Notes under the pieces: model-generated
The model's database searches: none
Told to the model about the DNA's origin: nothing
What the model saw: only the letters and a program-made list of their open reading frames with translations
Origin: Trypanosoma brucei
Lineage: Eukaryota
Assembly (NCBI GenBank): GCA_000002445.1
Contig: CH464491.1
Location: forward strand, 4,896,001-4,960,000
DNA: 64,000 nucleotides
Direction of reading: 5' to 3'
Translations under genes and position numbers: made by a program
Shown: piece after piece, positions 376 to 47,720 of the stretch
Position numbering within the stretch: position 1 is the first letter of the stretch
How the letters are laid out: each line of letters opens with the position of its first letter

Positions 376-1887
376 ATGCTTGCAGAAGCAGCTAAAATAC
401 TAGCAGCGCTGTCCCTTTTACTATCAGAAGCTAAAGCCAATACAGCAGCGAACACACTTGCAAATTCGGCAAGCAACTGGTGTCAAGAGCGGCATTACCT
501 AACAGCAGTGGTTCAAGCGATGCTAAGCGAACAGAATGACCGCCGAGGCAGGCTGGCAGCAAACGCAGCAAGGATTCAGGCATGGAGCCTCCAAGCGGCG
601 GCGGCAAACACCAAGCAACAGACGGCGCGATTCATTCTGCTTAGAGAGTACGGTAAATACGTTCAAACAACAGGCGAACAAACCCTACAGACACTCAAGA
701 CGGCAGCCGAACCCGCACTCAAGCTCCTTCGGGGCCGTATTGCCAACTACAACACCGCCATCGCCATAGCGGATCATAGTGTGCTCAAGATCGGCACAAC
801 AACGGGGAGCAGTGGCACAGTCAACGGCGCACCCTGCGAAGCAGCAACAACACTGCACAAAGCACAAACACAGCTTTGCACAGCACCTGCGGCAAACGAG
901 ATAACAACAGAAGCAGTCAAAGCCGTCCTAAAAAGCTTAAAAGCGGTCAAACTCGTAGCCAGAATAGAAGTCCACGAACTGCTTGACGGACCAACACTGC
1001 ACGTCAAGGGTCAATCAGCTGGCGGTGAAACTTGGACCGCAGGTGTGAGCAGCAAGTGCACAGCAACCAGTGGCGGCTCGCAAGTAGGAAGTTCAGTGAC
1101 ACACCAAGCCCCAGAGCCGGCCAAACTAAAAGGGACAGCTGGAACCATAACAACGACAAGCGAAACGTCGAAACCTGTTGTCAACGACGGCGACGATGTT
1201 TACACTTCAGGCGTAAATACACCGGAGAAACTCGCGCAGGCGCTGCTCTCAGTAAAGACTGAGTTGCTGAAACAGACAGTGGACCTGAGCGCGATAACAT
1301 TAGACACACTGGAAACCGACCCAGTAGCCCAAGCACTAGCAAATATCTTACTTTTAAGCGATACCAAGCGACTAACACCAGACCAGCCCAACAGATCGGA
1401 ACAATTGAAAACCCTAATAATAAAGGAATTTGGACCAGAAAACACTGCATACTCAACGGCATTCATCAATAGCTATGACACGGCGGCAGTCACACTGCTA
1501 GTCGGCGGAAAACCGAAGTCAGAAAAGCTGAACACAATAACCAATCCAGAAAATATCGCAAAAGCAATCAGTTATTTAGCAGCAACAAACCAGATAAAAC
1601 AAACAATAGAGGGAAACAAAGACCAATGTTCGACTGTGGAAAAAGAGAAAAAGCAATCACCTTCAAAAGAAGAATGCAAGGAACACACAGAGCAAGAAGC
1701 TTGCCAGAACGCGGGATGCAAATTTGATAATAGCAAAAATGATGGTGAAAAGTGCTTTCCGAACCCTGAAACAAAAGAAGCAGCTCAGAAAGATGGGAAT
1801 GATAGTAAAAACACAAACACCACCGGCAGCAACTCTTTTGTCATTAAGAAGGTCCCTCTTTGGCTTGCAGTTTTTATCCTAGGATAA
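376..1887 (+). CDS. Variant surface glycoprotein (VSG), apparently intact 503-aa ORF
   Basis: Uninterrupted ORF with an N-terminal signal-like segment (MLAEAAKILAALSLLLSEAKA). Cys-rich C-terminal domain (CKEHTEQEACQNAGCKFDN...GEKCF). Ends in a hydrophobic GPI-anchor signal (NSFVIKKVPLWLAVFILG). Confidence 0.8.
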   Translation: MLAEAAKILAALSLLLSEAKANTAANTLANSASNWCQERHYLTAVVQAMLSEQNDRRGRLAANAARIQAWSLQAAAANTKQQTARFILLREYGKYVQTTGEQTLQTLKTAAEPALKLLRGRIANYNTAIAIADHSVLKIGTTTGSSGTVNGAPCEAATTLHKAQTQLCTAPAANEITTEAVKAVLKSLKAVKLVARIEVHELLDGPTLHVKGQSAGGETWTAGVSSKCTATSGGSQVGSSVTHQAPEPAKLKGTAGTITTTSETSKPVVNDGDDVYTSGVNTPEKLAQALLSVKTELLKQTVDLSAITLDTLETDPVAQALANILLLSDTKRLTPDQPNRSEQLKTLIIKEFGPENTAYSTAFINSYDTAAVTLLVGGKPKSEKLNTITNPENIAKAISYLAATNQIKQTIEGNKDQCSTVEKEKKQSPSKEECKEHTEQEACQNAGCKFDNSKNDGEKCFPNPETKEAAQKDGNDSKNTNTTGSNSFVIKKVPLWLAVFILG

Positions 1888-4939: not shown

Positions 4940-5080
4940 GAGGTAATAATAATAATGAGAGGACAGTGTTGTGAGTGTATATACACTAATATTATAATAA
5001 GAGCAGTAATAATAATATGATAATAATGATAATAATAGGAGTGTGTTGTGAGTGTGTATATGCTAATATTGTGAGTAAAG
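4940..5080 (+). repeat. 70-bp repeats (2 units)
   Basis: (TAA)n runs followed by GAGGACAGTGTTGTGAGTGTATATACACTAATATTATAATAAGAG, and again GGAGTGTGTTGTGAGTGTGTATATGC. Confidence 0.8.
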
Positions 5081-8082: not shown

Positions 8083-8182
8083 NNNNNNNNNNNNNNNNNN
8101 NNNNNNNNNNNNNNNNNNNNNNNNNNNNNNNNNNNNNNNNNNNNNNNNNNNNNNNNNNNNNNNNNNNNNNNNNNNNNNNNNN
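8083..8182. other. Assembly gap (100 N)
   Basis: Run of N. Confidence 1.
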
Positions 8183-8308
8183 TGGGCGCCTGGAGTATGC
8201 GTACCGACAATCANTGTTCCCTGAAGGAAGCTGCTGGCTCTTGGCTTCTTTGATGATACGGGGTACTGGATCTCTGACACCACGTTGAGGTGGCCGGCAT
8301 CGCCAGGG
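8183..8308 (-). mobile_element. ingi/RIME 5'-end fragment (truncated by gap)
   Basis: The reverse complement matches the ingi/RIME 5' terminus CCCTGGCGATGCCGGCCACCTCAACGTGGTGTCAGAGATCCAGTACCCCGTATCATCAAAGAAGCCAAGAGCCAGCAGC. Confidence 0.8.
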
Positions 8309-8590
8309 TATGAAGCAAAATTTTTTTTTAATTTTCTTCGTGCCTTCGTGAGAGTTTCTCCCAACTGGCGCGGCCATCAGCCATCACCGTAGAGCCCTGA
8401 GATGCTATCGGTCTGGCGACTGTGGCAGAGTCTCCCTTTTTTATTCATCCTAACACACCCTCTATAATTTTTGTTGTAGCTCCGCAGTTGAACGGAATAC
8501 AGTAGATGGGGCGAGAAGCCCCCCTCACCCCGGACTCTCCCAAAGATGTCAATTAGCAATCCTTTTGTTTTGTTTTTTGTTATTCGTTTA

Positions 8591-9238
8591 TTATTCTCTC
8601 CCCCTCTTTCTGTTTCTGTTTTTGTTGCTTGTTGACTGCATACCTCCTCTGTCTCTGAGGGTGTCTGGACTATTCCTGCGTCCGGTGCTTTTCCTGCTGG
8701 CTCCACACTCGGCAATAAGGGGGGAAGTTGCAGAAGGGAGAGTGGGTTGTATGACTGTTACCTTAGGTGAGGACTTCACCTGCGGCCGGCTCCGTTCAAC
8801 CGCAATGAGAAACTGCGCCAGCCTTTTGGAGAAACATACATCCTGCACACACTCACCTTCTACCGCAAATCTGACACGTAACTCCTTCAAACCGGGACAG
8901 CTCATCAAGTGCAGCGACGTTTCTTCGCAGTCGCCGCGTTGGCTGGTAACAGCGCGCTCTACCTTCATACCGTGCATCTTCTTTTGATGTAGGGTGAGGC
9001 CAGTTTTGCTAGCACACTGCCTTCCGCATGTCGGGCACACCAACATGGATGTGTTTGTATGCGGGGAATCAGTGGCACACAATTTTGTGCTTTTGCTGCA
9101 TTTAAGCTCGACTCCCTCACCTTTGTGGAAAGCCTTACAGTGTCGGATGAGGGAGTCCCTGCAACTGAGCACTTTTTGGCACACACCACACTGCACCTCG
9201 CCTTTCGCCGGGACGTCAAAAATTTCCCTCACGGGCAC
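8591..9238 (-). CDS. ingi ORF fragment: C-terminal C2H2 zinc-finger region
   Basis: CGVCQKVLSCRDSLIRHCKAFH and CPTCGRQCASKTGLTLHQKKMH. Confidence 0.7.
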   Translation of the reverse strand: MPVREIFDVPAKGEVQCGVCQKVLSCRDSLIRHCKAFHKGEGVELKCSKSTKLCATDSPHTNTSMLVCPTCGRQCASKTGLTLHQKKMHGMKVERAVTSQRGDCEETSLHLMSCPGLKELRVRFAVEGECVQDVCFSKRLAQFLIAVERSRPQVKSSPKVTVIQPTLPSATSPLIAECGASRKSTGRRNSPDTLRDRGGMQSTSNKNRNRKRGRE

Positions 9239-10505
9239 GCTTACGAGGGAATTGCACCACCACGGTACCGTCCTCCGTCACTATGCTTTTATGTTTGAAT
9301 TTCTTGTGTAGTGACAGGGAAGAGCGTGTACCGAAGCTCGCCTCGCACAGGTCACATTGAAACGGCAGCTTCCGTGTATCCTGAGGGGCTGGCGGTGCTG
9401 GGGCTCTACCATCTCCTTGCAATGAGTCTTCGTTCTCTCGCCCCCTTTTCACGCGGCAACTACCGCTGCCTATGCCATGTATTGTTCTAAGGTGGTGTAA
9501 TAGTCGGCCTGGCACTGCGAATTTGGAGGTACAGAGGGTACAATGAAGCACCTGCGGTCTCATCGGGACTCGTGTGCTCGACGGTAGAGGAACGATCGCC
9601 ACCACTGGAGGGGGCTCCAGGGGGATATCCACTATAGGTGTTGCATCGCCGTATTTGATCTTTCGAAGGGCATCAGCTCGCATAAAGCCATGTTTGCTTA
9701 CCATATGCGTTACAGCACTCGAGCGGCATTGGTATGTGGCATCACATTCCGTACATTTGGTCGGTTCGGAGGTTCTCTGAAGAGTGCGTGTCACAACAGT
9801 TGGGACCGTTTGTATTGTTGGTCCTATCGCTGCATGTTGCGGGTTACACCATCGGCACTGTGGAGGCACACTCGAATTGATCTTTCGCAACATCCATCCA
9901 TAGTGCCTTGAAGACCCAACCCGAAAGCGTGCCAGTGCCGTTTCTTCTTCCCTCGTCAGTTCTTCTTTATGTTTTGTTGGAAAGTGGTTGCCCGTGATAC
10001 CAAACCTATGAGTGTTCTCATAGACTTCTTCCGACCTAAGCACTCGCTTCGCATAAGCAATGATGTCGGGGATCAATGTGTCTCGCAACTGTGGTAAATC
10101 TGCGGCCTTTTTCGCCATGTCATCGCAAACCTCATTCTGTTTCACGCCACAATGGACAAACACAAATTGCAGTCGTATACGCACCTTTCTTCTCTGAACT
10201 TGAAGCAGAAGCCTCCATAGTCGTCTTAGAATTGGGTCCGTTGCGGCTAGGGGGCTTGTCTGCAGTACTGTTAACATTGACAGCGAGTCAGAGAAGATGG
10301 ACAACCTGCTCGGTGTGGTTCTGTATGCCGGAAGCCATTTCAGCAGCCGTTGCAGTCCTATCTCTAATGCTACGCATTCCGCTCTGTAACTGAATGAGAG
10401 TTCCCCTGCTCCGGTCTTGGGTGCACAAATCAGCGTGTTGTTTCTATAGAGCAGGGCAGCTGCTCCGGACTTCTCACCGAGGGACACGGATCCATCAGTC
10501 CACAA
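9216..10505 (-). CDS. ingi ORF fragment: RNase H-like region
   Basis: MWTDGSVSLGEKSGAAALLY..., colinear with the matching ingi copy 2 ORF. Confidence 0.7.
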   Translation of the reverse strand: MWTDGSVSLGEKSGAAALLYRNNTLICAPKTGAGELSFSYRAECVALEIGLQRLLKWLPAYRTTPSRLSIFSDSLSMLTVLQTSPLAATDPILRRLWRLLLQVQRRKVRIRLQFVFVHCGVKQNEVCDDMAKKAADLPQLRDTLIPDIIAYAKRVLRSEEVYENTHRFGITGNHFPTKHKEELTREEETALARFRVGSSRHYGWMLRKINSSVPPQCRWCNPQHAAIGPTIQTVPTVVTRTLQRTSEPTKCTECDATYQCRSSAVTHMVSKHGFMRADALRKIKYGDATPIVDIPLEPPPVVAIVPLPSSTRVPMRPQVLHCTLCTSKFAVPGRLLHHLRTIHGIGSGSCRVKRGRENEDSLQGDGRAPAPPAPQDTRKLPFQCDLCEASFGTRSSLSLHKKFKHKSIVTEDGTVVVQFPRKRAREGNF

Positions 10506-10520
10506 TTCGTAGTGCTCTCG

Positions 10521-13076
10521 TCACGGTGGCTCCTTCCCTCTCCGTGCAAAATGCCGTGCAATCCACTTTTCGGAAGCCTCCCTTTTGACATCTTCAGGGT
10601 CATCAGCGCACACAGGCTTTATCTGCGTGTGAAATAGCGGTCGGCAGCTGTGGCGGAGCGTCGATGTCTCTAGTGGGTGCTCGCGTGGCTCAATGCGGAG
10701 GTGGGGATAGGACCGCATGATACGGGAATGTAGGGCTCTGACTGGGTGTTTGCTGTGGTATACTTCTTCAGCACTGCGCCGCAAACATCCGCCTCGTGAC
10801 TCACACATCAGCATGAATTTCATGCTGCGTACAAGAGTGGTCGTCTTGAGTGGCAGGAGGTTTGCTTCCAGCAGAGAGTCCTCTTTGCGCGTCCCATGCG
10901 GTATGCCGGCTATGATGTGACTGGCTTTGTGTTGCGTTGCTGCAAGGAGGTCACGACTTCGTTTTGAAGCGTCCCAGTACCATACCTCAATCCCATACAT
11001 GGTGTGTGCCTGTACGATTACTAGATAAAAAGCTCTCAGTACTTGTCGTCTTGGCCCCCATGTAGAAGCTGAGATGGCTGCTATCTGCAGTAGTCTGAAG
11101 TCCATCTTGCGTCTCGTTTCGGTCGCATGTGTTGCCATCCCCTGCAGACACTGGAATGTTACTCCTAGAAGCTTCGGTGTCCTGTCAGCTCCTATTCTTT
11201 CGCCGTCCAGTTGTAATGTAAGGGGGTGGCGCTCTATACACCCGAAGAGTGTGCACTTTGTTTTCGCTACGTTGACAGACATGAAGTACTCTTGTGACCA
11301 CTGTAACACCACGTTGAGGCCGCATTGCAGTGTGTGGTTGATGACATCCCTCTCTGTGTGTCTCGCAAGTAGCGTCAGGTCGTCTGCAAAGAATCCGTGC
11401 TGCAGTAACGGCACTTCTGCAAGGCGTTGGCTCAACGAGTTCATGACAATAATGAACATGATTGACCCAAGGACAGTTCCTTGTGTCACTCTTCGCTCAA
11501 ATGTTCTGCTTCTGGAAAGCTTCTCCTTGAATCTCACTCTGCCAGTTCGGTTACTCAGAAATGATACGCACCACTTCACAATGTGGGGTGATACCTTCAT
11601 TCTGTGCATTTCCCTCGCAATTTTGTCGTTGTACACTGTATCGAATGCCTTCTCGTAGTCAACGAATACAGCACCCGTACGAGATTGATGCGTGGGGCGG
11701 CAAAGGGCAGCACCGACCTGCAGGAGTTGTTCGAGTGTTGAGCATCCGGGGCGAAAGCCTGATTGCTGCGGCGTCAGCTGGGACTCAACAGTGTCTCTAA
11801 GCCTCGCGGCAATTATGCGCTCCATGACTTTGCAGAGACAGCTCGTGAGCGTCACAGGCCTGTAAGAATCGAGGTCCTCCGCCTTTTTTCCGGCCTTCAG
11901 GATGGGGATGATAACACCAGTCTTCCATGCAGGCGGCACGACTCCCCTTCGTAGGCTGTCATTGAATAGCCTCAGAACAACATTCTGCGCTGTGTTACAG
12001 AGATGTTGCAGTGCCTCGTTGTATAAGCAATCAGGTCCGGCTGCGGATCCACTCGGTAGCAGTTTGATCGATCTCCGTAGTTCAGCCATAGTGATGGGAC
12101 TGAACTCACTCGCTATCGTCTTTATGGGTGCCGGTGGGTGTGAGTCGGGGTGCCTTCTTGCCCGGGATGAGTACAGTTTAATGAACCTCTCAGCTTGACG
12201 GTAGTCCGTGATGGCCGCGTTATCAACAAGTACCGCCGCTGTGGTTAGTGGTCGTGGCGCATATACCTTCTTGACAATGTGCCAACTGCAGCGGTCTGAC
12301 ACCGCAAGTATGGAGCATAGCGTGTTCCATCTCTTCTTTGTGGTACGGTCCAGTATCTGCTTACACGTGGCTACCAACTTTTCCCTTCGATAGGAGGGTC
12401 CGCAACCAGCGATCTCTTCATCGAGTTTCGCGAGCTCAGGTGTCCAATGTGGTGGCGTTGCTCTGCAGCCACGGGGGACGGAGACCTTCGTCGCAATGCG
12501 GATGGCGGAGCTCAATTTCTGTTCCAGGGTGTTGACGTTCTTCTCTCTACCAATTTTCCTGCAGAGCTCGTCAACCTTGAGATGGAAATTCCTCCAGTCA
12601 GCTTTTAGCCATGCGTACATGGGCTTTCGAAGCCGCGGGCAACTCAGTGCATCTGTGTCGTCTCCAACGATAACGTCAAAAAATATGTGATGGTGATCAC
12701 TATCGGGAGAATACAGCGATGTCCACGTGTAAACTGTGCAATTCCTTGACAGTGCCACATCAGGGGTGGACTCTCCGTGGTGGCGCGCGTACCTGGTGTA
12801 CTCACCAGTGTTGCAGACCAGAAACTGGTTGTCAATGCACCACTGTGTGAGGGTTTCACCCTTGGTATTTGGTGGGCTCGCGCGATCCCATGCCAAAGCG
12901 TGTGCGTTAGCCTCTACACCGATGAGCTGGGCCCCGTCAGTCGTCAGAAGCGTATCTAGGTCAGTTGCCGTGAAGGTGTGTTTTGGTGGGATGTATGCCG
13001 ACGTGACGGTCAGCGCAGTTTCACGTGCAAGGTGAATTGTTGCATGCACTTGTTCAATGCGACCAACAACGGTCAT
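10521..13076 (-). CDS. ingi ORF fragment: endonuclease C-terminal part plus reverse transcriptase
   Basis: RT motifs FVDYEKAFDTV and FADDLTLL. Ends at an in-frame TGA before the RNase H segment. Confidence 0.8.
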   Translation of the reverse strand: MTVVGRIEQVHATIHLARETALTVTSAYIPPKHTFTATDLDTLLTTDGAQLIGVEANAHALAWDRASPPNTKGETLTQWCIDNQFLVCNTGEYTRYARHHGESTPDVALSRNCTVYTWTSLYSPDSDHHHIFFDVIVGDDTDALSCPRLRKPMYAWLKADWRNFHLKVDELCRKIGREKNVNTLEQKLSSAIRIATKVSVPRGCRATPPHWTPELAKLDEEIAGCGPSYRREKLVATCKQILDRTTKKRWNTLCSILAVSDRCSWHIVKKVYAPRPLTTAAVLVDNAAITDYRQAERFIKLYSSRARRHPDSHPPAPIKTIASEFSPITMAELRRSIKLLPSGSAAGPDCLYNEALQHLCNTAQNVVLRLFNDSLRRGVVPPAWKTGVIIPILKAGKKAEDLDSYRPVTLTSCLCKVMERIIAARLRDTVESQLTPQQSGFRPGCSTLEQLLQVGAALCRPTHQSRTGAVFVDYEKAFDTVYNDKIAREMHRMKVSPHIVKWCVSFLSNRTGRVRFKEKLSRSRTFERRVTQGTVLGSIMFIIVMNSLSQRLAEVPLLQHGFFADDLTLLARHTERDVINHTLQCGLNVVLQWSQEYFMSVNVAKTKCTLFGCIERHPLTLQLDGERIGADRTPKLLGVTFQCLQGMATHATETRRKMDFRLLQIAAISASTWGPRRQVLRAFYLVIVQAHTMYGIEVWYWDASKRSRDLLAATQHKASHIIAGIPHGTRKEDSLLEANLLPLKTTTLVRSMKFMLMCESRGGCLRRSAEEVYHSKHPVRALHSRIMRSYPHLRIEPREHPLETSTLRHSCRPLFHTQIKPVCADDPEDVKREASEKWIARHFARRGKEPP

Positions 13077-13760
13077 ACCTATCTAGGCTGGTAGGTCCTC
13101 CCTCACTAGTATTGATACACCACCTCCTTTGCAGTTACGAGCTATTCCGTGATGTTGGTAGCCAGCAACGCTAAAGCAAGCCGCCCCTCCAGGCGTCATC
13201 CTTGTCTCACTCAACAGACAAAAGGCGATCCGCTCATCAACAAGGGTTTTGTGGAGTGCTAATCTCTTTCCTTGAGATAGCCCGGCGCAGTTTCACTGCA
13301 TCCCGCACAACGACGGGCTGGGATTCTCTTCCACATCACCGGACAGCAGCATCTTAGTGCGGATGATACTGCTGATGGCACGCTGGCACGTGCCCAGGGA
13401 CCGACAAATGAAAAACGGTGTCCCAGCAAGACGCTGCTGATCCCTGTGCTGTATGATGCCGTATCCGGAGCAAAGCAGTGTTCCCCATGAAAGGAACGCT
13501 GCTGGCTCTTGGCTTCCCCCGATGATACGGGGTACTGGACCCTGGCACCACGTTGAGGTGGCCGGCGTCGCCAGGGAAATTTTCTATTTGCTACAAAACT
13601 GGAAACGTAGCAAGAATTTTTCTCTTTTTTGCAGCCATCTGTGCATTCTTTCTTTCCTTTCCTTTTGGATTTCCCCTGCTTGCTCTCCTTTTTCTGCTTT
13701 AGCTTTGCATTTTTAAAATATAAGTGTCACTATCGCAGTCGAGAGTTTTGCATTCCTCTG

Positions 13761-23787: not shown

Positions 23788-24059
23788 CTGTTGGCTTTTT
23801 TACTGCGTTGAGAGAGAAAATTGTATAGTAGAGTAAGTTTGATGTTGCTCTTTTATGGGTTATGTTGTACATTAGAGGTTCTTTCGGTTATATGTTGCGG
23901 CATGCTTTCGCTGAAGAACGTGGTCTCACATTCTTAACAGTTACTTGCACTATCTTTTCACATTCTTGAATGAATAGAATCTGATATTTACCATTAGGTT
24001 CCGCTTTTCCACTACACAACGCACAATCACACCATGGCATTACGTTCTTCCCATTATCA

Positions 24060-24297
24060 CCGGACAGCAGCATCTTAGTGCGGATGATACTGCTGATGGC
24101 ACGCTGGCACGTGCCCAGGGACCGACAAATGAAAAACGGTGTCCCAGCAAGACGCTGCTGATCCCTGTGCTGCATGATGCCGTAGCCGGAGCACAGCAGT
24201 GTTCCAAAAGAGAGGAATGCTGATGACTCTTGGCTTCCCCCGATGATACGGGGTACTGGACCCTGGCACCACGTTGAGGTGGTCGGCATCGCCAGGG
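24060..24297 (-). mobile_element. Solo 5' half of RIME/ingi (about 238 bp) flanked by a 10-bp direct repeat CCCATTATCA
   Basis: The reverse complement equals ingi positions about 1-240 (CCCTGGCGATGCCGACCACCTCAACGTGG...GCTGCTGTCCGGTG). CCCATTATCA sits immediately on both sides (24050-24059 and 24300-24309). Confidence 0.7.
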
Positions 24298-35471: not shown

Positions 35472-36157
35472 AAGATGTTATCATAATAGCAATAAAGAAC
35501 TTGAAATTCCTTAAAGATTAATAGAAACCCATAAAAAGAGAAGAAGGCAGTTGCGCAGATAATATGATTAGTTATGAAGTAATGTTTACCAATATATATG
35601 CATTGCTCTGATATTTTTATGATATAGCTGTTAAACAGTGTGTGCTCAATGTTTAGGGATTATATTTCATCACGGACCTACACTTTTTATTTTTTTAATT
35701 CACATTCAAGTACGACTGCTGCTGCACGCTACATGAACCCCTATGTACATTGTTATGGCAGTTAAAGTAGTCAGATACACTACTGGTCCTCTTGTTTACT
35801 ATGAAGTTTAAGCCTTTGTGCTGTAAATATGCCAACTATCCACTTTCCCAAATTTTCCACCGATTTGGCTTCTTAGCTATTTCTACTGTTGTTGCAGATA
35901 ATATAGTAACTCCATTTGGGCCGCACACTAGACTGAGCGTGCTTCTTATATGCCGCCCATAACCACCATATGTATGATAATGTCCATCGTCATGTTTGTG
36001 TATGGAACTACACATATTCCATTTCTCCCTCTATTTGTATTTCTGCGCGTCCTTCAATATAATCCTCAGCGCTCTCCCACTTACTTACATATATTGCGTA
36101 TTTCATAGCTATAAGTGCCTCTAGTTTTGCCGTTCATTGCCCCTCAACCGCTACTTT

Positions 36158-37892: not shown

Positions 37893-39713
37893 AGTCTACT
37901 TATTCTTGGCGGCACCTTTTTTTTGTTACTACTGTGGTTTTGGTGTTCTGCTTGTAGGTCTTTTTGTTAGTGTTTAAAAGGGGGAAGATCCTTGTGGTTT
38001 CTGATGTTAACGGTGCGAGATTGGCCGCTTACATGGAGGTTGGTCGTCTGCGGGTTGGCTTATAATTAATGCATCAACTTTCCAAACTTGTACACAAAAT
38101 AACCTCTTCCCTTCTTGCCTCTGTTTTTTTGTCGCTACGCTTCTCTCTTTGTGTCAAACGCTATAAGCTCCCATATTTGCGTGCTATATCAGTGTTGAAA
38201 TATCTTCCCAGTTACCACTTTTGTCAGCACAAGTATTGTAACTAACATCGCAGTTTCTCGACCAAACGTCTGCGAAACTACAGGCGCTTTCCAGTTAGCT
38301 CCATCACCGCTTTTCTTCTCACTTAGCGATACTGTGGCATAGTTAAACCTAATCTTGCTTATAGTTGAGCTTAGTAGATTTGTTGAGGCTTTTTCATTGT
38401 TTTTCGGTGTACATTTTGGTGCTTCTTACCTTGGGTTTGTTGGTGAACTCTTTTTGGATGTTAAATTGTTTAATTGGGGATTTATTGTTTCTAAAGCTTT
38501 TATTCTGTCTGTCATACTGACTCAGTCCTTTTGTGTAGCGCATAAAGATAAATGCACAAAGAAATCACTCTATATATACTCATTTTGACACTACCCCTAG
38601 TTATTTTCAGATTTCTATTTACTTTTTTCATTCGTTCAAATATTAGAGTTTGACCATATGTAGCGTGAAACTGAGAACTGGATGTTGTTTCTAAGTTGGT
38701 GTTAATGTGTTAGCCCTCTGGCCATCTCTGTACGCAATAATTCTCCGCTTGTGGTTACGCCTTGTTTGCGCACATTATCTTAATAATTGTTATGATTTCT
38801 TTGATTTCTGTTTTATCGTGCACTTTTCTAGCATATGGTGCCCTGCCGGAAGCTATTGTGCATCTAGACGTATTTTTATTTTAATTGTCCCCTTTGTGTC
38901 CCCTTTACTTTAATAATAAGATTCTGTGGATGCCGCTGAAGTGGCCGCTGCTTATATTAGATTTTTCTGAATGTACTAATACCGCTGTAGAATGCTCTAC
39001 TATACTTGATGCCTTGATACTTCTTGCGGTTTCAGTATTAGGTAATTTATTATTGGGCTATTATATATATTGATTATCCTTTGAAAGACAAATGTCTCAC
39101 TTATTATAATATGTAAGTTATCATTTTCAATGGTCGTGCCTTTCACCTGTTCACCCTCTGAAAGGTTAGCTTTGTCATAGAAACCCATTGTGTCAATGAC
39201 GTAAATTTTGTTTTGCGACACTTTTCTACTTTATCTTTTAACCATATCGTTCCATATTAAATTCGGTAGAATATCTTTATATTTCTGGCAGTCCATGTGA
39301 CTCCGAAAGCAGTGCATATATTTCTATGCCTGAAAATTCAAAGCGTGTGTTCTTTATTGGTTCTACTTGGAGGAAGATCTTCATTACATGTTTCATAATC
39401 AAACATGTACCGTTGCTGTTCTGCACTGAGACGGTTCCTCTTCTGCATGTCCTTCCGATTGTTGCTTATTTTACATCACCAGATTATTTTGGCTCGAAAC
39501 TTGTTTGTAACTAGTAGGCTCCGTCCCTTTTCTTTTCTTTCATTTTGTGCTTCAACTCTGCGTAAGCAAGAACTCTTATATAATTTGTCCTTACTACGAA
39601 AACAAGAAATTTGGAAGCCGTATGTCAGTGTGAATTTTGCAGAGTTCTGCCGCTAATTCTCCACTCTTCACGAAGGTTATCTAATGGTTAATACGTGCTC
39701 TACTCCCTTGTAA

Positions 39714-40283
39714 CGCCAGCCACCTCAACGTGGTGCCAGGGTCTAGTGCTCCGTCTCATCGGGGGAAGCCAAGAGCCAGCAGCGTTCCTCTTTTGGAACA
39801 CTGCTGTGCTCCGGCTACGGCATCATACAGCACAGGGATCAGCAGCGTCTTGCTGGGACACCGTTTTTCATTTGTCGGTCCCTGGGCACGTGCCAGCGTG
39901 TCATCAGCAGTATCATCCGCACTAAGATGCTGCTGTCCGGTGATATGGAAGAGAATCCCAGCCCGTCGTTGTGCGGGATGCAGTGGAACTGCGCCGGGCT
40001 ATCTCAAGGAAAGAGATTAGCACTCCACAAAACCCTTGTTGATGAGCGGATCGCCTTTTGTCTGTTGAGTGAGACAAGGATGACGCCTGGAGAGGCGGCT
40101 TGCTTTAGCGTTGCTGGCTACCAACATCACGGAATAGCTCGTAACTGCAAAGGAGGTGGTGTATCAATACTAGTGAGGGAGGACCTACCAGTCGAGACCG
40201 GTATAGCCGTTGTTGGTCACATTGAAAAAGTGCATGCAACAATTCACCTTGCACGTGAAACGGCGCTGACTGTCACGTCGGCA
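39714..40283 (+). mobile_element. ingi 5' fragment (about 570 bp) in + orientation, abutting the poly(A) end of the - strand ingi
   Basis: GCCAGCCACCTCAACGTGGTGCCAGGG... encodes MLLSGDMEENPSPSLCGMQWNCAGLSQGKRLALHK...ARETALTVTSA. It ends one base before the poly-T at 40284. Confidence 0.85.
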
Positions 40284-40551
40284 TTTTTTTTTGAATTTTC
40301 TTCGTGCCTTCGTGAGAGTTTCCCCCCACTGGCGCGGCCATCAGCCATCACCGTAGAGCCCTGAGATGCTATCGGTCTGGCAACTGTGGCAGAGTCTCAC
40401 CTTTTTTATTCAGCCTAACACTCTCTATAATTTTTGTTGTAGCTCCGCAGTTGAACGGAACACAGCAGATGGGGCGACAAGCCTCCCACCCTAGACTCTC
40501 CCAAAGATGTCAATTAGCAATCCTTTTGTTTTGATTTTTGTTATTCGTTTA

Positions 40552-42444
40552 TTATTCTCTTCCCCTCTTTCTGTTTTTGTTGCTTGTTGACTGCATACCC
40601 CTTCTGTCTCTGAGGGTGTCTGGACTATTCCTGCGGTTGGTGCTTTTCCTGCTAGCTCCACACTCGGCAATAAGGGGGGAAGTTGCAGAAGGGAGAGTGG
40701 GTTGTATGACTGTTACCTTAGGGGAGGACTTCACCTGCGGCTGGCTCCGTTCAACCGCAATGAGAAACTGCGCCAGCCTTTTGGAAAAACATATATCCTG
40801 CACAAACACACCTTCTACCGCAAACCTGACACGTAACTCCTTCAAACCGGGACAGCTCATCAAGTGCAGCGACGTTTCTTCGCAGTCGCCGCGTTGGCTG
40901 GTAACAGCGCGCTCTACCTTCATACCGTGCATCTTCTTTTGATGTAGGGTGAGGCCAGTTTTGTTAGCACACTGCCTTCCGCATGTCGGGTACACCAACA
41001 TGGATGTGTTTGTATGCGGGGAATCAGTGGCACACAATTTCGTGCTTTTGCTGCATTTAAGCTCGACTCCCTCACCTTTGTGGAAAGCCTTACAGTGTCG
41101 GATGAGGGAGTCCCTGCAACTGAGCACTTTTTGACACACACCACACTGCACCTCGACCTTCCCAGGAATGTCAACGTTTCCCTCACGGGCACGCTTACGA
41201 GGGAATTGCACCACCACCACGGTACCGTCCTCCGTCACTATGCTTTTATGTTTGAATTTCTTGTGTAGTGACAGGGAAGAACGTGTACCGAAGCTCGCCT
41301 CGCACAGGTCACATTGAAATGGCAGCTTCCGTGTATCCTGAGAGGCTGGCGCTGCTGGGGATCTACCATCTCCTTGCACTGAGTCCTCGTTCTCTCGCCC
41401 CCTTTTCACGCGGCAACTACCGCTACCTATGCCATGTATTGTTCTAAGGTGGTGTAATAGTCGGCCTGGCACTGCGAATTTGGAGGCACAGAGGGTACAA
41501 TGAAGCACCTGCGGTCTCATCGGGACTCGTGTGCTCGATGGTAGAGGAACGATCGCTACCACTGGAGGGGGCTCCGGGGGGATATCCACTGCAGGTGTTG
41601 CATCGCCGTATTTGATCCTCCGGAGGGCATCAGCTCGCACAAAGCCGTGTTTGTTTACCATGTGCGTTACAGCACTCGAGCGGCATTGATATGTGGCATC
41701 ACATTCCGTACATTTGGTCGGTTCGGAGGTTCTCTGAAGAGTGCGTGTCACAACAGTTGGGGCTGTTTGTATTGTTGGCCCTATCGCTGAATGTTGCGGG
41801 TTGCACCATCGGCACTGTGGAGGCACACTCGGGTTGATCTTTCGCAACATCCATCCATAGTGCCTTGAAGACCCAACCCGAAAGCGTGCCAGTCCCGTTT
41901 CTTCTTCCCTCGTCAGTTCTTCCTTATGTTTTGTCGGAAAGTGGTTGCCCGTGATACCAAACCTATGAGTGTTCTCATGGACTTCTTCCGACATAAGCAC
42001 TCGCTTCGCATAATCAATGATGTCGGGGATCCATGTATCTCGCAGCTGTGGTAAATCAGCGGCCTTTTTGGCCATTTCATCGCAAACCTCATTCCGTTTC
42101 ACGCCACAATGACCAAACACAAATTGCAGTCGGATACGTATCTTCCTTCTCTGAACTTGAAGCAGAAGCCTCCATAGTCGTCTTAGAATTGGGTCCGTTA
42201 CGGCTAGGAGGCCTGTCTGCAGTGCTGTTAACATTGACAGCGAGTCAGAGAAGATGGACAACCTGCTCGGTGTGCTTCTGTATGCCGGAAGCCATTTCAG
42301 CAGCCGTTGCAGTCCTATCTCTAATGCTACGCATTCCGCTCTGTAACTGCATGAGAGTTCCCCTGCTCCGGTCTTGGGTGCACAAATCAGCGTGTTGTTT
42401 CTATAGAGCAGGGCAGCTGCTCCGGACTTCTCACCGAGGGACAC
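40552..42444 (-). CDS. ingi ORF: RNase H-like plus C2H2 zinc-finger C-terminal region (630 aa, GTG start as called by the ORF track)
   Basis: SLGEKSGAAALLYRNN...CTECDATYQCRSSAVTHM...CGVCQKVLSCRDSLIRHCKAFH. Same frame as the upstream ORF, separated by a TGA. Confidence 0.8.
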   Translation of the reverse strand: MSLGEKSGAAALLYRNNTLICAPKTGAGELSCSYRAECVALEIGLQRLLKWLPAYRSTPSRLSIFSDSLSMLTALQTGLLAVTDPILRRLWRLLLQVQRRKIRIRLQFVFGHCGVKRNEVCDEMAKKAADLPQLRDTWIPDIIDYAKRVLMSEEVHENTHRFGITGNHFPTKHKEELTREEETGLARFRVGSSRHYGWMLRKINPSVPPQCRWCNPQHSAIGPTIQTAPTVVTRTLQRTSEPTKCTECDATYQCRSSAVTHMVNKHGFVRADALRRIKYGDATPAVDIPPEPPPVVAIVPLPSSTRVPMRPQVLHCTLCASKFAVPGRLLHHLRTIHGIGSGSCRVKRGRENEDSVQGDGRSPAAPASQDTRKLPFQCDLCEASFGTRSSLSLHKKFKHKSIVTEDGTVVVVQFPRKRAREGNVDIPGKVEVQCGVCQKVLSCRDSLIRHCKAFHKGEGVELKCSKSTKLCATDSPHTNTSMLVYPTCGRQCANKTGLTLHQKKMHGMKVERAVTSQRGDCEETSLHLMSCPGLKELRVRFAVEGVFVQDICFSKRLAQFLIAVERSQPQVKSSPKVTVIQPTLPSATSPLIAECGASRKSTNRRNSPDTLRDRRGMQSTSNKNRKRGRE

Positions 42445-42456
42445 GGATCCATCAGT

Positions 42457-45027
42457 TCACAATTCGTAGTGCTCTCGCCGCGGTGGCTCCTTCCCCCTCC
42501 GTGCAAAATGCCGTGCAATCCACTTTTCGGAAGCCTCCCTTTTGGCATCGTCAGGGTCATCAGCGCACGCAGGCTTTATCTGCGTGTGAAATAGTGATCG
42601 GCAGCTGTGGCGGAGCGTCGATGTCTCTAGTAGGTGCTCGCGTGGCTCAATGCGGAGGTGAAGGTAAGACCGCATGGTGCGGGAATGTAGGGCTTTGACT
42701 AGATGTTTGCTGTGGTATACTTCCTCAGCACTGCGCCGCAAACATCCGCCTCGTGACTCACACATCAGCATGAATTTCATGCTGCGCACAAGAGTGGTCG
42801 TCTTGAGTGGCAGGAGGTTTGCCTCCAGCAGAGAGTCCTCTTTGCGCGTCCCATGGGGTATGCCAGCTATGATGCAACTGGCTTTGTGTTGTGCTGCTGA
42901 AAGGAGATCGCGACTTCGTTCCGAAGCGTCCCAGTACCATACCTCAATGCCATACATGGTATGTGCCTGTACGAGTGCTAGATAAAAAGCTCTCAGTACT
43001 TGTCGTCTTGGCCCCCATGTAGAAGCTGAGATGGCTGCTATCTGCAGTAGTCGGAAGTCCATCTTGCGTCTCGTTTCGGCCGCATGTGTTGCCATCCCTT
43101 GCAGACACTGGAATGTTACTCCTAGAAGCTTCGGTGTCCTGTCAGCTCCTATTCTTTCGCCGTCCAGTTGTAATGTAAGGGGGTGGCGCTCTATACACCC
43201 GAAGAGTTTGCACTTTGTTTTCGCTACGTTGACAGACATAAAGTCCTTTTTTGACCACTGTAACACCACGTTGAGACCGCATTGTAGTGTGTGGTTGATG
43301 ACATCCCTCTCGGTGTGCCTCGCAAGTAGCGTTAGGTCGTCTGCAAAGAATCCGTGCTGCAGTAACGGCACTTCTACAAGGCGTTGGCTCAACGAGTTCA
43401 TGACAATAATGAACATGATTGGGCCAAGGACAGTTCCTTGTGGCACTCCTCGCTCAAATGTTCTGCTTCTGGAAAGCTTCTCCTTGAATCTCACTCTGCC
43501 AGTTCGGTTACTCAGAAATGATACGCACCACTTCACAATGTGGGGTGATACCTTCATTCTGTGCATTTCCCTCGCAATGCTGTTGTGTTCTACTGTATCA
43601 AATGCCTTCTCGTAGTCAACGAATACAGCACCCGTACGATATTTGTGCGTGGGACGGCAGAGGGCAGCGCGGACGTGGAGGAGTTGTTCGAGCGTTGAAC
43701 ATCCGGGGCGAAAGCCTGATTGCTGCGGCGTCAGCTGGAACTCAACAATGTCTCTAAGCCTCGTGGCAATTATGCGCTCCATGACTTTGCATAGACAGCT
43801 CGTGAGCGTCACAGGCCTGTAAGAATCGAGGTCCTCCGCCTTTTTTCCGGCCTTCAGGATGGGGATGATAACACCAGTCTTCCATGCAGGCGGCACGACT
43901 CCCGTTCGTAGGCTCTCATTGAATAGCCTCAGAACAACATTCAGCGCTGTTCTGCCGAGATGTTGCAGTGCCTCGTTGTGTAAGCAATCAGTTCTTGCTG
44001 CAGATCCACTCGGTAGCAGTTTGATCGATCTCCGTAGCTCAGCAATCGTGATGGGACTGAACTCACTCGCTATCGTCTTTATGGGTGCCGGTGGGTGTGA
44101 GTCGGGGTGTCTTCTTGCGCGGGACGAGTACAGTTTAATGAACCTCTCAGCTTGACAGTAGTCCGTGATGGCCGCGTTATCAACAAGTACAGCCGGTGTG
44201 GTTAGTAGTCGTGGCGCATATACCTTCTTGACAATGTGCCAACTGCAGCGGTCTGACACCGCAAGTCTGGAGCATAGCGTGCTCCATCTCTTCTTTGTGG
44301 TACGGTCCAGTATCTGCTTACGCGTGGCTACCAACTTTTCCCTTCGGTGGGAGGGTCCGCATCCAGCGATCTCTTCATCGAGTTTCGCGAGCTCAGGTGT
44401 CCAATGTGATGGCGTTGCTCTGCAGCCACGGGGGACGGAGACCTTCGTCGCAATGCGGATGGCGGAGCTCAATTTCTGTTCCAGGGTGTTGACGGTTTTT
44501 TCTCTACCAATTTTCCCGCAGAGCTCGTCAACCTTGAGACGGAAATTCCTCCAGTTAGCTTTTAGCCATGCGTACATGGGCTTTCGAAGCCGCGGGCAAC
44601 TCAGTGCATCTGTGTCCTCTCCGACGATAACGTCGAAAAATATGTGATGGTGATCGCTATCGGGAGAATACAGCGATGTCCACGTGTCCACTGTGCAATT
44701 CCTTGACAGTGTCACATCAGGGGTGGACTCCCCGTGGTGGCGCGCGTACTTTGTGCACTCACCAGTGTTGCAGACCAGAAACTGGTTGTCAATGCACCAC
44801 TGTGTGAGGGTTTCACCCTTGGTATTTGGTGGGTTCGCGCGATCCCATGCCAACGCGTGTGCGTTAGCCTCTACACCGATGAGCTGGGCCCCGTCAGTCG
44901 TCAGAAGCGTATCTAGGTCAGTTGCCGTGAAGGTGTGTTTTGGTGGGATGTATGCCGACGTGACAGTCAGCGCCGTTCCACGTGCAAGGTGAATTGTTGC
45001 ATGCACTTGTTCAACTCCCCCCAACAA
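42457..45027 (-). CDS. ingi ORF: endonuclease plus reverse transcriptase (856 aa)
   Basis: FVDYEKAFDTV, FADDLTLL. About 95% identical to the 10521-13076 ORF. Confidence 0.85.
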   Translation of the reverse strand: MLGGVEQVHATIHLARGTALTVTSAYIPPKHTFTATDLDTLLTTDGAQLIGVEANAHALAWDRANPPNTKGETLTQWCIDNQFLVCNTGECTKYARHHGESTPDVTLSRNCTVDTWTSLYSPDSDHHHIFFDVIVGEDTDALSCPRLRKPMYAWLKANWRNFRLKVDELCGKIGREKTVNTLEQKLSSAIRIATKVSVPRGCRATPSHWTPELAKLDEEIAGCGPSHRREKLVATRKQILDRTTKKRWSTLCSRLAVSDRCSWHIVKKVYAPRLLTTPAVLVDNAAITDYCQAERFIKLYSSRARRHPDSHPPAPIKTIASEFSPITIAELRRSIKLLPSGSAARTDCLHNEALQHLGRTALNVVLRLFNESLRTGVVPPAWKTGVIIPILKAGKKAEDLDSYRPVTLTSCLCKVMERIIATRLRDIVEFQLTPQQSGFRPGCSTLEQLLHVRAALCRPTHKYRTGAVFVDYEKAFDTVEHNSIAREMHRMKVSPHIVKWCVSFLSNRTGRVRFKEKLSRSRTFERGVPQGTVLGPIMFIIVMNSLSQRLVEVPLLQHGFFADDLTLLARHTERDVINHTLQCGLNVVLQWSKKDFMSVNVAKTKCKLFGCIERHPLTLQLDGERIGADRTPKLLGVTFQCLQGMATHAAETRRKMDFRLLQIAAISASTWGPRRQVLRAFYLALVQAHTMYGIEVWYWDASERSRDLLSAAQHKASCIIAGIPHGTRKEDSLLEANLLPLKTTTLVRSMKFMLMCESRGGCLRRSAEEVYHSKHLVKALHSRTMRSYLHLRIEPREHLLETSTLRHSCRSLFHTQIKPACADDPDDAKREASEKWIARHFARRGKEPPRREHYEL

Positions 45028-45526
45028 CGGCCATACCGGTCTCGACTGGTAGGTCCTCCCTCACTAGTGTTGATACACCACCTCCTTTGCAGTTACGAGC
45101 TATTCCGTGATGTTGGTAGCCAGCAACGCTAAAGCAAGCCGCCTCTCCAGGCGTCATCCTTGTCTCACTCAACAGACAAAAGGCGATCCGCTCATCAACA
45201 AGGGTTTTGTGGAGTGCTAATCTCTTTCCTTGAGATAGCCCGGCGCAGTTCCACTGCATCCCGCGCAACGACGGGCCGGGATTCTCTTCCACATCACCGG
45301 ACAGCAGCATCTTAGTGCGGATGATACTGCTGATGGCACGCTGGCACGTGCCCAGGGACCGACAAATGAAAAACGGTGTCTCAGCAAGACGCTGCTGCTC
45401 CCTGTGCTGTATGATGCTGTAGCCGGAGCACAGCAGTGTTCCCCATGAAAGGAACGCTGCTGGCTCTTGGCTTCCCCCGATGATACGGGGTACTGGACCC
45501 TGGCACCACGTTGAGGTGGCCGGCAT
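45011..45526 (-). CDS. ingi ORF N-terminal segment with canonical 2A-like motif DVEENPGP
   Basis: MLLSGDVEENPGPSLRGMQWNCAGLSQGKRLALHKTLVDERIAFCLLSETRMTPGEAACFSVAGYQHHG (apurinic endonuclease domain start). Confidence 0.75.
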   Translation of the reverse strand: MPATSTWCQGPVPRIIGGSQEPAAFLSWGTLLCSGYSIIQHREQQRLAETPFFICRSLGTCQRAISSIIRTKMLLSGDVEENPGPSLRGMQWNCAGLSQGKRLALHKTLVDERIAFCLLSETRMTPGEAACFSVAGYQHHGIARNCKGGGVSTLVREDLPVETGMAVVGGS

Positions 45527-45646
45527 CGCCAGGGGGAACAGGTCATAGCATCCAACTACAAAACGGTTCGCAGCTGGCAGTTTCTGGCAGTAAAAACAGC
45601 CGATAACATAAGGAGGTCAGGCTTCAAAGCCCTAGTTGTTTATGGA

Positions 45647-46870: not shown

Positions 46871-47149
46871 TGCTGTTTAATTTTTCTGGTACTTTAAGAA
46901 ACTATTTTCTCAATTTTATTAAATTTATGAACGTTTGATATTTTGAGGGAATTTTATAAATTTACTAAAATTTAATATATTATAATACTTTTTGAGAAAA
47001 ATATGAAAGTTAGAGAATTTTTGAAAAACTCAAAAAAGTGTACAAATGTGGTCTCTTGGTGTAATGTAGATAGTATAACAAGGTATGAAAATTGAGTGCT
47101 ATTATGAACTATTTCTAATTTAGTTCATTTAGCAGATATTAGTTGTGGT

Positions 47150-47720
<571 letters not shown>

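What the first reader, a model, noticed from the sequence alone, without database searches (positions are those of the whole stretch)
39714..40295. Inverted 570-bp ingi 5' fragment fused tail-to-tail to the poly(A) end of a full-length ingi, with no target-site duplication
The + strand fragment (ingi positions about 8-580, ending inside the endonuclease ORF at ...TALTVTSA) stops exactly where the poly-T of the - strand ingi (40284-) begins. The outer flanks (...tcacgtcggca versus ggaacaggtcat at 45535-) share no direct repeat. This is not a classical 5'-truncated insertion, which retains the 3' end. Its position at the element's 3' end also does not fit a standard twin-priming inversion, which inverts the 5' end. 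It suggests an ingi landing in or recombining with a pre-existing copy, or a rearrangement breakpoint.
Basis: seen in the sequence. Interest (0 to 1): 0.5.

Follow-up and report, generated by a model that had tools for sequence, protein, structure and literature searches.

The report
Ingi retrotransposon nested inside another ingi
A trypanosome "ingi" jumping gene inserted backwards into an older ingi copy at a site matching its own cutting signal, and most of the older copy was later lost, probably by recombination; this is ordinary repeat turnover in a variant-antigen gene array.

Summary
A 579-580-nt ingi 5' stub on the + strand (39705-40283) directly abuts the 9-T run (40284-40292) that is the poly(A) tail of a 5.25-kb ingi on the - strand (to 45534). 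The arms are 95.5% identical, so they are two different copies. No 12-bp target-site duplication brackets the full-length copy.

The published Tbingi/TbRIME target signature is AxxxxxxxTxxxGTxGGxTxxx^xTxTxxTxxxxx. The antisense strand of intact ingi (nt 583-604) matches all 7 upstream positions. That places the nick exactly at the observed junction (chance about 6e-5 per position). The full-length copy's 5' flank is also a canonical site at the correct 12-nt offset (9/10, about 1e-4), but its duplication would be ATGACCTGTTCC, a different target.

So both ends look like canonical target-primed junctions from two separate insertions. One ingi nested antisense in an older ingi. Its 5' side was then replaced through another ingi. 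I favour real homologous recombination, but an assembly mis-join through the 5.2-kb repeat is not excluded. Twin priming and insertion-mediated deletion fit poorly.

No second assembly could be found for the key junction. This is a routine transposon nest with one modestly interesting detail: ingi carries its own target motif in antisense.

The parts
39693..39704 (+). 12 nt directly upstream of the older (+) ingi (ACGTGCTCTACT), its presumed 5' target-site duplication copy. The flank is a partial match to the ingi4 signature (5/10, GGxT core).
   Evidence: No second copy next to an ingi end in the window.
39705..40283 (+). Host stub 'ingi-A': ingi nt 1-582 (5' signature region, 5' UTR, start of the endonuclease ORF). 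The 5' end is complete. It is cut off at nt 582/583.
   Evidence: Its protein is 87-90% identical to T. brucei-group ingi N-terminal ORFs.
40284..40292 (-). Poly(A) tail (9 A, read as T on the + strand) of the (-) ingi. The junction is between the host 3'-OH and first-strand cDNA. The first T is ambiguous with host nt 583.
40293..45534 (-). Full-length ingi 'E3' (5250 nt with tail). It has the canonical 3' end ...CACGAAGGCACGAAGAAAATTC(A)n and 5' end CCCTGGCGATGCCGGCCACC. Its coding region is broken into three ORFs (171, 856 and 630 aa), so it is not autonomous.
40272..40283 (-). The 12 nt after E3's poly(A) (TGCCGACGTGAC, the antisense of host nt 582..571). This is the 3' duplication copy expected for a nested insertion.
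44931..44952 (+). E3's own intact copy of the site that was hit in the host: antisense ingi nt 604-583, AGGTGTGTTTTGGTGGGAT+GTA. It matches 7/7 upstream positions of the ingi4 signature, with the predicted nick between 44952 and 44953 (nt 583|582).
   Evidence: The same site is in E1 at 12974-12992.
45535..45546 (-). The 12 nt directly upstream of E3 (ATGACCTGTTCC), the expected duplication of a different insertion event.
45547..45568 (-). Canonical ingi4 recognition signature upstream of that 12-mer (AACCGTTTTGTAGTTGGAT+GCT): 7/7 upstream positions, 9/10 overall.
   Evidence: This flank and the first 31 nt of E3 are identical in T. equiperdum OVI contig CZPT02000748.1.

Best explanation
This is the stable remnant of an antisense ingi-in-ingi insertion followed by ingi-ingi homologous recombination.

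Step 1 (inferred from anatomy): an older ingi (A) sat on the + strand at 39705 in a Trypanozoon subtelomeric VSG array.

Step 2 (strongly supported): a second ingi (B) retrotransposed into A in the opposite orientation by ordinary endonuclease-dependent, target-primed reverse transcription. The ingi endonuclease recognised a motif that ingi itself carries on its antisense strand (nt 604-583) and nicked A's sense strand after nt 582. That 3'-OH primed cDNA synthesis on B's poly(A). This is literally what the + strand reads: ...GTCGGCA-TTTTTTTTT-GAATTTTCTTCG....

Step 3 (inferred): a full nest would leave 4.7-kb inverted arms only about 0.6 kb apart, a fragile arrangement. B's 5' part, with the rest of A, was then replaced through a third (-) ingi (C). 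C had inserted canonically at ...GTAGTTGGATGCT^ATGACCTGTTCC upstream of the VSG at 45647. The replacement could have been unequal crossover or deletion between direct copies, or break-induced replication or gene conversion. The present 'full-length' element would then be C at its 5' end and B at its 3' end, which is why it has no duplication.

No cellular function is implied. The only plausible by-product is a 0.58-kb inverted repeat able to form dsRNA if co-transcribed.
For: Published Tbingi/TbRIME signature with cleavage position and 12-nt duplication: PMC3820030, section 3.3.

3' junction:
- The antisense of intact ingi nt 583-604 matches 7/7 upstream signature positions.
- It predicts the nick at nt 582|583, which is the observed junction within 1 nt.
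- Only 8 of 127,932 positions in the window reach 7/7 (6e-5).
- Only two such sites exist in a whole ingi, both antisense.

5' flank:
- It scores 9/10, with 7/7 upstream, at exactly the 12-nt offset.
- A score of 9 or more occurs at 13 of 127,932 positions (1e-4).

The same signature scores 5-8/10 on 7 of the 8 other ingi 5' flanks scored, so it is a valid yardstick here.

The two predicted duplications differ (TGCCGACGTGAC and ATGACCTGTTCC).

The arms are 95.5% identical, so they are distinct copies.

Precedents in a different, chromosome-scale assembly, T. b. equiperdum GCA_003543875.1 (I recall it as long-read, not checked):
- L007 is a full-length ingi whose 5' flank is antisense ingi nt ~4574-5250 at a 6/7 site, and its 3' flank is unrelated.
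- L004 has a 7/7 site but no duplication.

Literature:
- ingi/RIME recombine and cause rearrangements (PMC2854126).
- Tandem re-use of one target site is frequent (PMC3820030).
Against: - The upstream half of the nested target is not present at this locus. It is reconstructed from other ingi copies.
- The three consensus T positions inside the duplication are not met (0/3), so the total score is 7/10, which has a background of 0.6%.
- No recombination break point could be seen inside E3. Sliding-window identity to five other copies is flat at 93-98%.
- Neither the reciprocal product nor the rest of ingi-A is in the window.
- No second assembly containing the 40283/40284 junction was found.
- The assembly has 100-N gaps and a stray N, so it is not finished sequence.
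Confidence: 0.6

Rival explanations
1. The nested 3' junction is real, but the 'full-length element without duplication' is an in-silico chimera. The assembler walked from ingi-B (nested in A) into another (-) ingi copy (C) through the shared 5.2-kb repeat. It thereby joined two loci that are not adjacent in the genome.
For: - ingi is a 5.2-kb repeat with about 95% identity between copies.
- The scaffold has three 100-N gaps, one inside a neighbouring ingi tandem, and a stray N.
- Gene orientation and AT skew flip exactly at E3, as expected if two unrelated contigs were merged.
- The short-read T. equiperdum OVI contig stops 31 nt into E3, which shows how such assemblies break here.
Against: - There is no gap or ambiguity code in or next to E3.
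- E3 is not consensus-like. It is about 95-96% identical to each other copy, like any individual copy.
- Full-length ingi with canonical sites but mismatched flanks also occur in a different, chromosome-scale assembly, T. b. equiperdum GCA_003543875.1 (L004, L007).
- Recombination of ingi/RIME is documented.
Confidence: 0.22
2. This was a single retrotransposition event with target loss. Reverse transcription started at the antisense site in ingi-A, and the 5' end of the new copy was joined to a distant break. The rest of A and the intervening DNA were deleted (insertion-mediated deletion, as described for human L1).
For: - There is no duplication.
- The 3' junction is a canonical endonuclease site.
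- The rest of A is absent from the window.
Against: The 5' flank carries a 9/10 match to the target signature at exactly the 12-nt offset of a normal second-strand cut (background 1e-4). A random 5' end-joining site should not have this.
Confidence: 0.07
3. The junction has nothing to do with retrotransposition. A double-strand break at the end of E3's poly(A) was joined by end joining or microhomology-mediated joining to a break inside an inverted ingi. Alternatively it is a twin-priming or template-switch product.
For: - Microhomology-type junctions at other 5'-only ingi fragments (window 24056-24297; L002) show that such deletions may occur.
- One nt (T) is shared at the junction.
Against: - The break in the host coincides to the nucleotide with the predicted endonuclease nick (6e-5).
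- Twin priming puts the inverted piece at the 5' end, inside one pair of duplications. Here it lies beyond the poly(A).
- The inverted piece is also 4.5% diverged from E3, so it was not copied from the same RNA.
Confidence: 0.04

Closest known systems
Canonical Tbingi/TbRIME insertion (ingi4 subclade; Bringaud et al. 2004, as summarised in PMC3820030)
   Same: - 5' signature region, 5.25-kb length, characteristic 3' end and poly(A).
- The target signature AxxxxxxxTxxxGTxGGxTxxx^ lies upstream of the insertion at both junctions.
- 12-nt spacing at the 5' flank.
   Different: The two junctions belong to different target sites, so the element has no matching 12-bp duplication. One of the targets is ingi itself, in antisense.
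Tandem or nested arrangements of ingi-clade retroposons caused by repeated use of one recognition site (PMC3820030)
   Same: A retroposon is found directly against another retroposon because the endonuclease is sequence-selective. The window also has a classical tandem, E1 then a 12-nt spacer then E2, at 8309-8320.
   Different: Known cases are head-to-tail elements separated by a duplication. Here the orientation is tail-to-tail, the site is inside the host element, and only one side of the host survives.
Recombination-mediated deletions and chimeric elements between dispersed LINE/SINE copies (human Alu and L1 recombination-mediated deletion; from my own knowledge)
   Same: A full-length element whose two flanks derive from two different insertions, with no duplication and loss of the DNA between them.
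   Different: The pre-recombination state is not available here, so the deletion or translocation is inferred, not shown.
L1 twin-priming inversions (Ostertag and Kazazian 2001; from my own knowledge)
   Same: An inverted segment of the same element family is joined to a direct segment.
   Different: - The inverted segment lies 3' of the poly(A), not at the 5' end.
- It contains the element's very 5' end.
- It is 4.5% diverged.
- It is not enclosed by a duplication.
L1 insertion-mediated target deletions (from my own knowledge)
   Same: No duplication, a canonical 3' junction and missing target DNA.
   Different: The 5' flank here is itself a canonical target at the right offset, which that mechanism does not predict.

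Membership tests
Tbingi (ingi4 subclade non-LTR retrotransposon) | Conserved 5' 76-79-nt signature starting CCCTGGCG...CCACCTCAACGTGGTGCCAGGG | tested here: met
   E3 has it intact. The stub has it from nt 1 with about 9 substitutions in the first 60 nt.
Tbingi (ingi4 subclade non-LTR retrotransposon) | About 5.2-kb length with the characteristic 3' end and poly(A) tail | tested here: met
   E3 is 5250 nt and 95% identical end-to-end to four other full-length copies. Its 3' end is ...GAAGAAAATTC(A)9. The stub has only nt 1-582.
Tbingi (ingi4 subclade non-LTR retrotransposon) | Encodes an endonuclease / reverse transcriptase / RNase H polyprotein | tested here: inconclusive
   The stub ORF is 87-90% identical to T. 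brucei-group ingi N-terminal proteins carrying Pfam Exo_endo_phos. Homologous loci carry RVT_1 and RNase_H genes. E3's own reading frame is split into 171, 856 and 630 aa, so it is a defective copy. E3's ORFs were not scanned against Pfam here.
Tbingi (ingi4 subclade non-LTR retrotransposon) | Preceded by the ingi4 target signature AxxxxxxxTxxxGTxGGxTxxx^xTxTxxTxxxxx | tested here: met
   E3's 5' flank scores 9/10. The reconstructed 3' target scores 7/7 upstream and 7/10 overall. The stub's 5' flank scores 5/10.
Tbingi (ingi4 subclade non-LTR retrotransposon) | Flanked by a 12-bp target-site duplication | tested here: not met
   TGCCGACGTGAC versus ATGACCTGTTCC. There is no partner copy in the window. 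All four other full-length copies checked also lack a matching duplication (E1, L003, L004; L007). This feature marks an undisturbed insertion, not family membership.
Nested (self-)insertion by target-primed reverse transcription | The poly(A) end of the incoming element is joined to host-element sequence at an endonuclease recognition site | tested here: met
Nested (self-)insertion by target-primed reverse transcription | The remainder of the host element, preceded by the duplicated 12 nt, lies on the other side of the incoming element | tested here: not met
   There is no further ingi sequence beyond 45534. The flank there is a VSG upstream region. This is why a second step is required.
Recombinant (chimeric) element from two dispersed copies | Both flanks are individually canonical but belong to different target sites | tested here: met
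Recombinant (chimeric) element from two dispersed copies | Parental or pre-recombination alleles, or a reciprocal product, are identifiable | not testable with these tools
   No Trypanosoma genome DNA collection can be searched. Exact-protein look-ups and homologue searches gave no syntenic locus.
Twin-priming inversion | The inverted segment is at the 5' end of the insertion, derives from the same RNA, and lies inside one pair of duplications | tested here: not met
   The inverted segment lies beyond the poly(A), is 4.5% diverged and has no enclosing duplication.
Insertion-mediated deletion | The 5' junction is formed at a site unrelated to the endonuclease signature | tested here: not met
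   The 5' flank scores 9/10 at the 12-nt offset.

The most novel reading that the evidence does not exclude
ingi carries a perfect copy of its own endonuclease recognition signature on its antisense strand (nt 604-583, conserved exactly in 4 of 7 copies examined and with one change in the other 3). Antisense ingi-into-ingi insertion might therefore be a recurrent, programmed-looking event. Each such nest would create long inverted repeats that are fragile and potentially dsRNA-forming. These would seed breaks, ingi-ingi recombination and strand switches in subtelomeric VSG arrays, and might feed the RNAi pathway that silences ingi. Two of the few elements examined here (this one and L007) show antisense nests with one host side lost, and both strand switches in the window coincide with ingi.
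Probability: 0.15. Interest if true: 0.5.

Novelty: new member of a known kind. Interest (0 to 1): 0.22.

Why it matters
For annotation, this is a defective ingi plus a 0.58-kb ingi stub. It is not a gene and not a new element type.

It documents at nucleotide resolution that the published Tbingi target signature predicts a real cleavage inside ingi itself. It also shows that ingi copies in VSG arrays carry the flanks of different insertions. This is relevant to how subtelomeric antigen-gene arrays get rearranged, and to judging assembly joins across ingi.

If antisense self-targeting proved recurrent, it would give a simple source of inverted ingi pairs, fragile sites and dsRNA. That is not shown here.

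Tried and rejected
1. Exact look-up of the junction-spanning 145-aa ORF in public assemblies returned nothing. A homologue search with it found ingi N-terminal ORFs, but none covered the chimeric tail.

2. I looked for the same locus elsewhere through neighbouring VSGs.
- The right-hand VSG is 100% identical to a 1.7-kb T. equiperdum OVI contig that ends 31 nt into E3. That confirms only the 5' junction.
- The left-hand VSG has no hit closer than 90% (Lister 427 VSG 309), with no contig on record.

3. I looked for a recombination break point inside E3 by sliding-window identity to five other copies. The profile was flat and uninformative.

4. I searched the window for partner copies of the three candidate 12-mers and for the remaining 4.7 kb of ingi-A. 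Neither was found.

5. A large palindrome around E3 was rejected. Only 70-79% family-level similarity exists between the left and right array units.

6. A fold-back or library artefact was rejected because of the 4.5% arm divergence and the 4.67-kb spacing.

7. The idea that the stub is an internally primed or microhomology-deleted element, like 24056-24297 and L002, was rejected. Its own 12-mer ACGTGCTCTACT does not follow the break.

8. An Rfam scan of the window gave no hits.

9. The original papers on the ingi target site (Bringaud 2004; 2009) are not held. The signature was taken from the text of PMC3820030. I had first derived a TTGGAT-like core from seven flanks, and this agreed with the published signature.

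Full report
**Setting.** The window is a Trypanozoon (T. brucei / T. equiperdum / T. evansi group) subtelomeric VSG array.
- VSG-like ORFs lie on the - strand at 31341-32573 and 36564-37559, and on the + strand at 45647-46843 and from 50239. A long (TAA)n tract lies at about 47.1-48.0 kb.
- The VSG at 45647 is 100% identical to a T. equiperdum OVI protein. The 1723-nt OVI contig CZPT02000748.1 equals window 45505-47227 without a mismatch.
- The scaffold has three 100-N gaps (8083-8182, 47362-47461, 61645-61744) and a single N at 8214. None is near the finding.

- With the (-) element as query, blastn finds two full-length ingi: E3 at 45535..40285 and E1 at 13576..8321 (95% identical). It also finds three 5'-only pieces: 8308..8212, 24297..24056, and the + strand piece 39715..40284 (95.5% over 573 columns). 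The repeat finder gives the same arms.
- The alignment shows the + piece begins at ingi nt 1 (39705, CCCTTGTAACGCC...). Its first 60 nt are unusually diverged.
- By the ruler, host sequence ends at a40283 (ingi nt 582 when nt 1 = 45534). It is followed by nine T (40284-40292), then GAATTTTCTTCGTGCC. That is the reverse complement of the canonical ingi 3' end seen in every other copy.
- A 145-aa ORF reads from the endonuclease N-terminus (...TALTVTSA) across the junction into antisense 3' UTR. Its ingi part is 87-90% identical to annotated T. brucei-group ingi ORFs.
- The 12 nt after E3's poly(A) are TGCCGACGTGAC and the 12 nt before its 5' end are ATGACCTGTTCC, so there is no duplication.

**The key test.** PMC3820030 (section 3.3) gives the target signature of the Tbingi/TbRIME (ingi4) group as 5'-AxxxxxxxTxxxGTxGGxTxxx^xTxTxxTxxxxx-3'. 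The caret marks first-strand cleavage, and the following 12 nt become the duplication. Before finding this, I had derived a TTGGAT-like core at -9..-4 from seven 5' flanks, and it agrees (note 2). Scored on ten 5' flanks from the window and from T. b. gambiense and T. b. equiperdum loci, the signature gives 5-9 of 10 in nine cases and 2 in one, E1.

*3' junction.*
- The host's lost half can be read from intact copies.
- The antisense of ingi nt 604-583 is AGGTGTGTTTTGGTGGGAT+GTA, followed by TGCCGACGTGAC.
- This matches all seven upstream positions. It puts the nick between nt 583 and 582, the observed junction within the 1-nt T ambiguity.
- The three T positions inside the duplication are not met, so the total is 7/10.

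*5' flank of E3.*
- AACCGTTTTGTAGTTGGAT+GCT ^ ATGACCTGTTCC | CCCTGGCG matches 7/7 upstream and 9/10 overall, at exactly the 12-nt offset.

*Background in this window.*
- 7/7 upstream occurs at 8 of 127,932 positions (6e-5).
- A score of 9/10 or more occurs at 13 positions (1e-4).
- A score of 7/10 or more occurs at 0.57% of positions.
- The exact 7-position pattern occurs 8 times against 7.2 expected. Three of the eight are these two sites plus E1's copy of the internal site.
- A whole ingi contains only two such sites, both on the antisense strand.

**Interpretation.** Both ends of E3 are canonical target-primed reverse transcription junctions, but they belong to two different targets.
- The + strand at 40270-40300 reads as host 3'-OH (...GTCGGCA), then first-strand cDNA (T9-GAATTTTC...). 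This is what is expected if an ingi (B) inserted antisense into a pre-existing ingi (A).
- A complete nest would read [A 1-582][B reversed][A 571-5250].
- Instead, B's 5' side runs into the flank of another canonical insertion (C) next to the VSG at 45647.
- The simplest account is homologous exchange between B and C. That could be deletion between direct copies, or gene conversion or break-induced replication from another array.
- ingi/RIME recombination and resulting rearrangements are reported for T. brucei (PMC2854126).
- A full antisense nest would contain 4.7-kb inverted arms about 0.6 kb apart. By general knowledge of long inverted repeats, such an arrangement is break-prone. That would explain why only a stub remains. 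This step is inference.

**Precedents in the loci fetched.**
- In the chromosome-scale T. b. equiperdum assembly GCA_003543875.1 (which I recall as long-read, not checked here), L007 has a full-length ingi whose 5' flank is the antisense of another ingi (nt ~4574-5250), at a site scoring 6/7 upstream. Its 3' flank is unrelated. It is the mirror image of the present case.
- L004 has a 7/7 site but no duplication, and L003 also lacks one.
- E1 in this window is followed by a 12-nt spacer (TTTTGCTTCATA) and a second element. This is the classical tandem arrangement (PMC3820030). Its 5' flank does not match that spacer.
- Missing duplications are therefore ordinary for ingi in these genomes.

**Rivals.**
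- *Assembly mis-join.* The main rival is that the B/C exchange happened in the assembler, not the cell. The repeat is 5.2 kb, the scaffold is gapped, and gene orientation flips exactly at E3. Against this, there is no gap or ambiguity in E3, E3 looks like an individual copy rather than a consensus, and the same pattern occurs in a different, chromosome-scale assembly. I could not resolve this. No Trypanosoma DNA collection is searchable, and protein-based look-ups found no syntenic locus. The 5' junction alone is corroborated by the OVI contig.
- *Single event with target deletion.* This is disfavoured by the canonical 5' flank.
- *End joining unrelated to retrotransposition.* This is disfavoured by the nucleotide-precise coincidence with the predicted nick.
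- *Twin priming.* This is excluded by position (beyond the poly(A)), by arm divergence and by the lack of an enclosing duplication.
- *Fold-back artefact.* This is excluded by the 4.5% divergence and 4.67-kb spacing.

**Verdict.** It is a routine product of retrotransposon nesting and recombination in a repeat-rich subtelomere. The one detail that may be new is that ingi carries its own endonuclease target in antisense and has been hit there at least once. Whether this is a recurrent hot spot with consequences for array rearrangement or siRNA production is untested.

Noticed in passing
window 8212-8320 and 8321-13576 (- strand): Full-length ingi E1 is followed, after a 12-nt spacer TTTTGCTTCATA (3/3 of the consensus T positions inside the duplication), by the 5' end of a second ingi/RIME. 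That second element runs into the 100-N gap at 8083-8182, with a stray N at 8214 and only 88% identity near the contig end. This is the classical tandem arrangement. E1's own 5' flank (AATAGAAAATTT, signature 2/10) does not match the spacer, so E1 also lacks a duplication.
   Followed up: partly
window 24056-24310 (- strand): A 5'-only ingi piece (nt 1-243) is bounded by TGATAATGGGGA upstream and TGATAATGGGAA at the break (11/12). TGAT is shared between ingi nt 240-243 and the repeat. This fits a microhomology-mediated deletion or an internally primed insertion. However, the next 50 nt or so still resemble ingi nt 244-300 at roughly 60%, so a degenerate older element partly homogenised by gene conversion is an alternative.
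   Followed up: partly
L002 10132-10565 (T. b. gambiense DAL972, FN554973.1): A second 5'-only ingi piece (nt 1-421) has the same anatomy: GGCTACTCTACA upstream and GGCTAGTCTACA at the break (11/12). TGGCTAC is shared between the ingi break point and the repeat. The flank scores 7/10 on the ingi4 signature.
   Followed up: partly
L007 9304-15260 (T. b. equiperdum IVM-t1, CM010679.1): A full-length (+) ingi has as its 5' flank the antisense of another ingi (nt ~4574-5250), at a site matching 6/7 upstream signature positions. Its 3' flank (TTTCCTTTCCAG...) is unrelated. This is a second antisense ingi-in-ingi junction with only one side of the host kept.
   Followed up: partly
window about 8 kb and about 45.5 kb: AT skew and VSG orientation flip at both places: + strand genes outside and - strand genes between. 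Each flip coincides with a full-length ingi. The first also coincides with an assembly gap.
   Followed up: no
window 42117-42135 (+ strand, antisense of E3 nt about 3400-3418): This is the only other exact 7/7 match to the ingi4 upstream signature inside ingi (ACACAAATTGCAGTCGGAT). It is also on the antisense strand and is a second potential self-target.
   Followed up: no
window 47139-47959: A very long (TAA)n / TAA-rich tract downstream of the VSG at 45647 is interrupted by the 100-N gap at 47362-47461. It is probably part of the 70-bp-repeat-type region between VSG cassettes.
   Followed up: no
window 34552-35527 (-) and 48532-49510 (+): Inverted copies, 79% identical, of an array unit encoding a roughly 150-170-aa ORF (MKCIGSIYG... 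/ MNYIRCIYAK...) lie on either side of E3. This is family-level similarity of VSG-array units, not a recent palindrome.
   Followed up: partly
window 40552-45526 (- strand): E3's coding region is split into three ORFs of 171, 856 and 630 aa. There is a frameshift near nt 520, where E3 reads GGGGGGAGTTG against GGTCGCATTG in other copies, and a break near 42444-42457. E3 cannot encode its own mobilisation.
   Followed up: partly
L005 9912-11122 and L006 9992-18301 (T. b. gambiense): There are further rearranged ingi copies. L005 has nt 2-1085 followed by nt 1868-1969 only. L006 has nt 2-4285, then about 4 kb of other DNA carrying an 802-aa gene, then nt 5190-5251.
   Followed up: no
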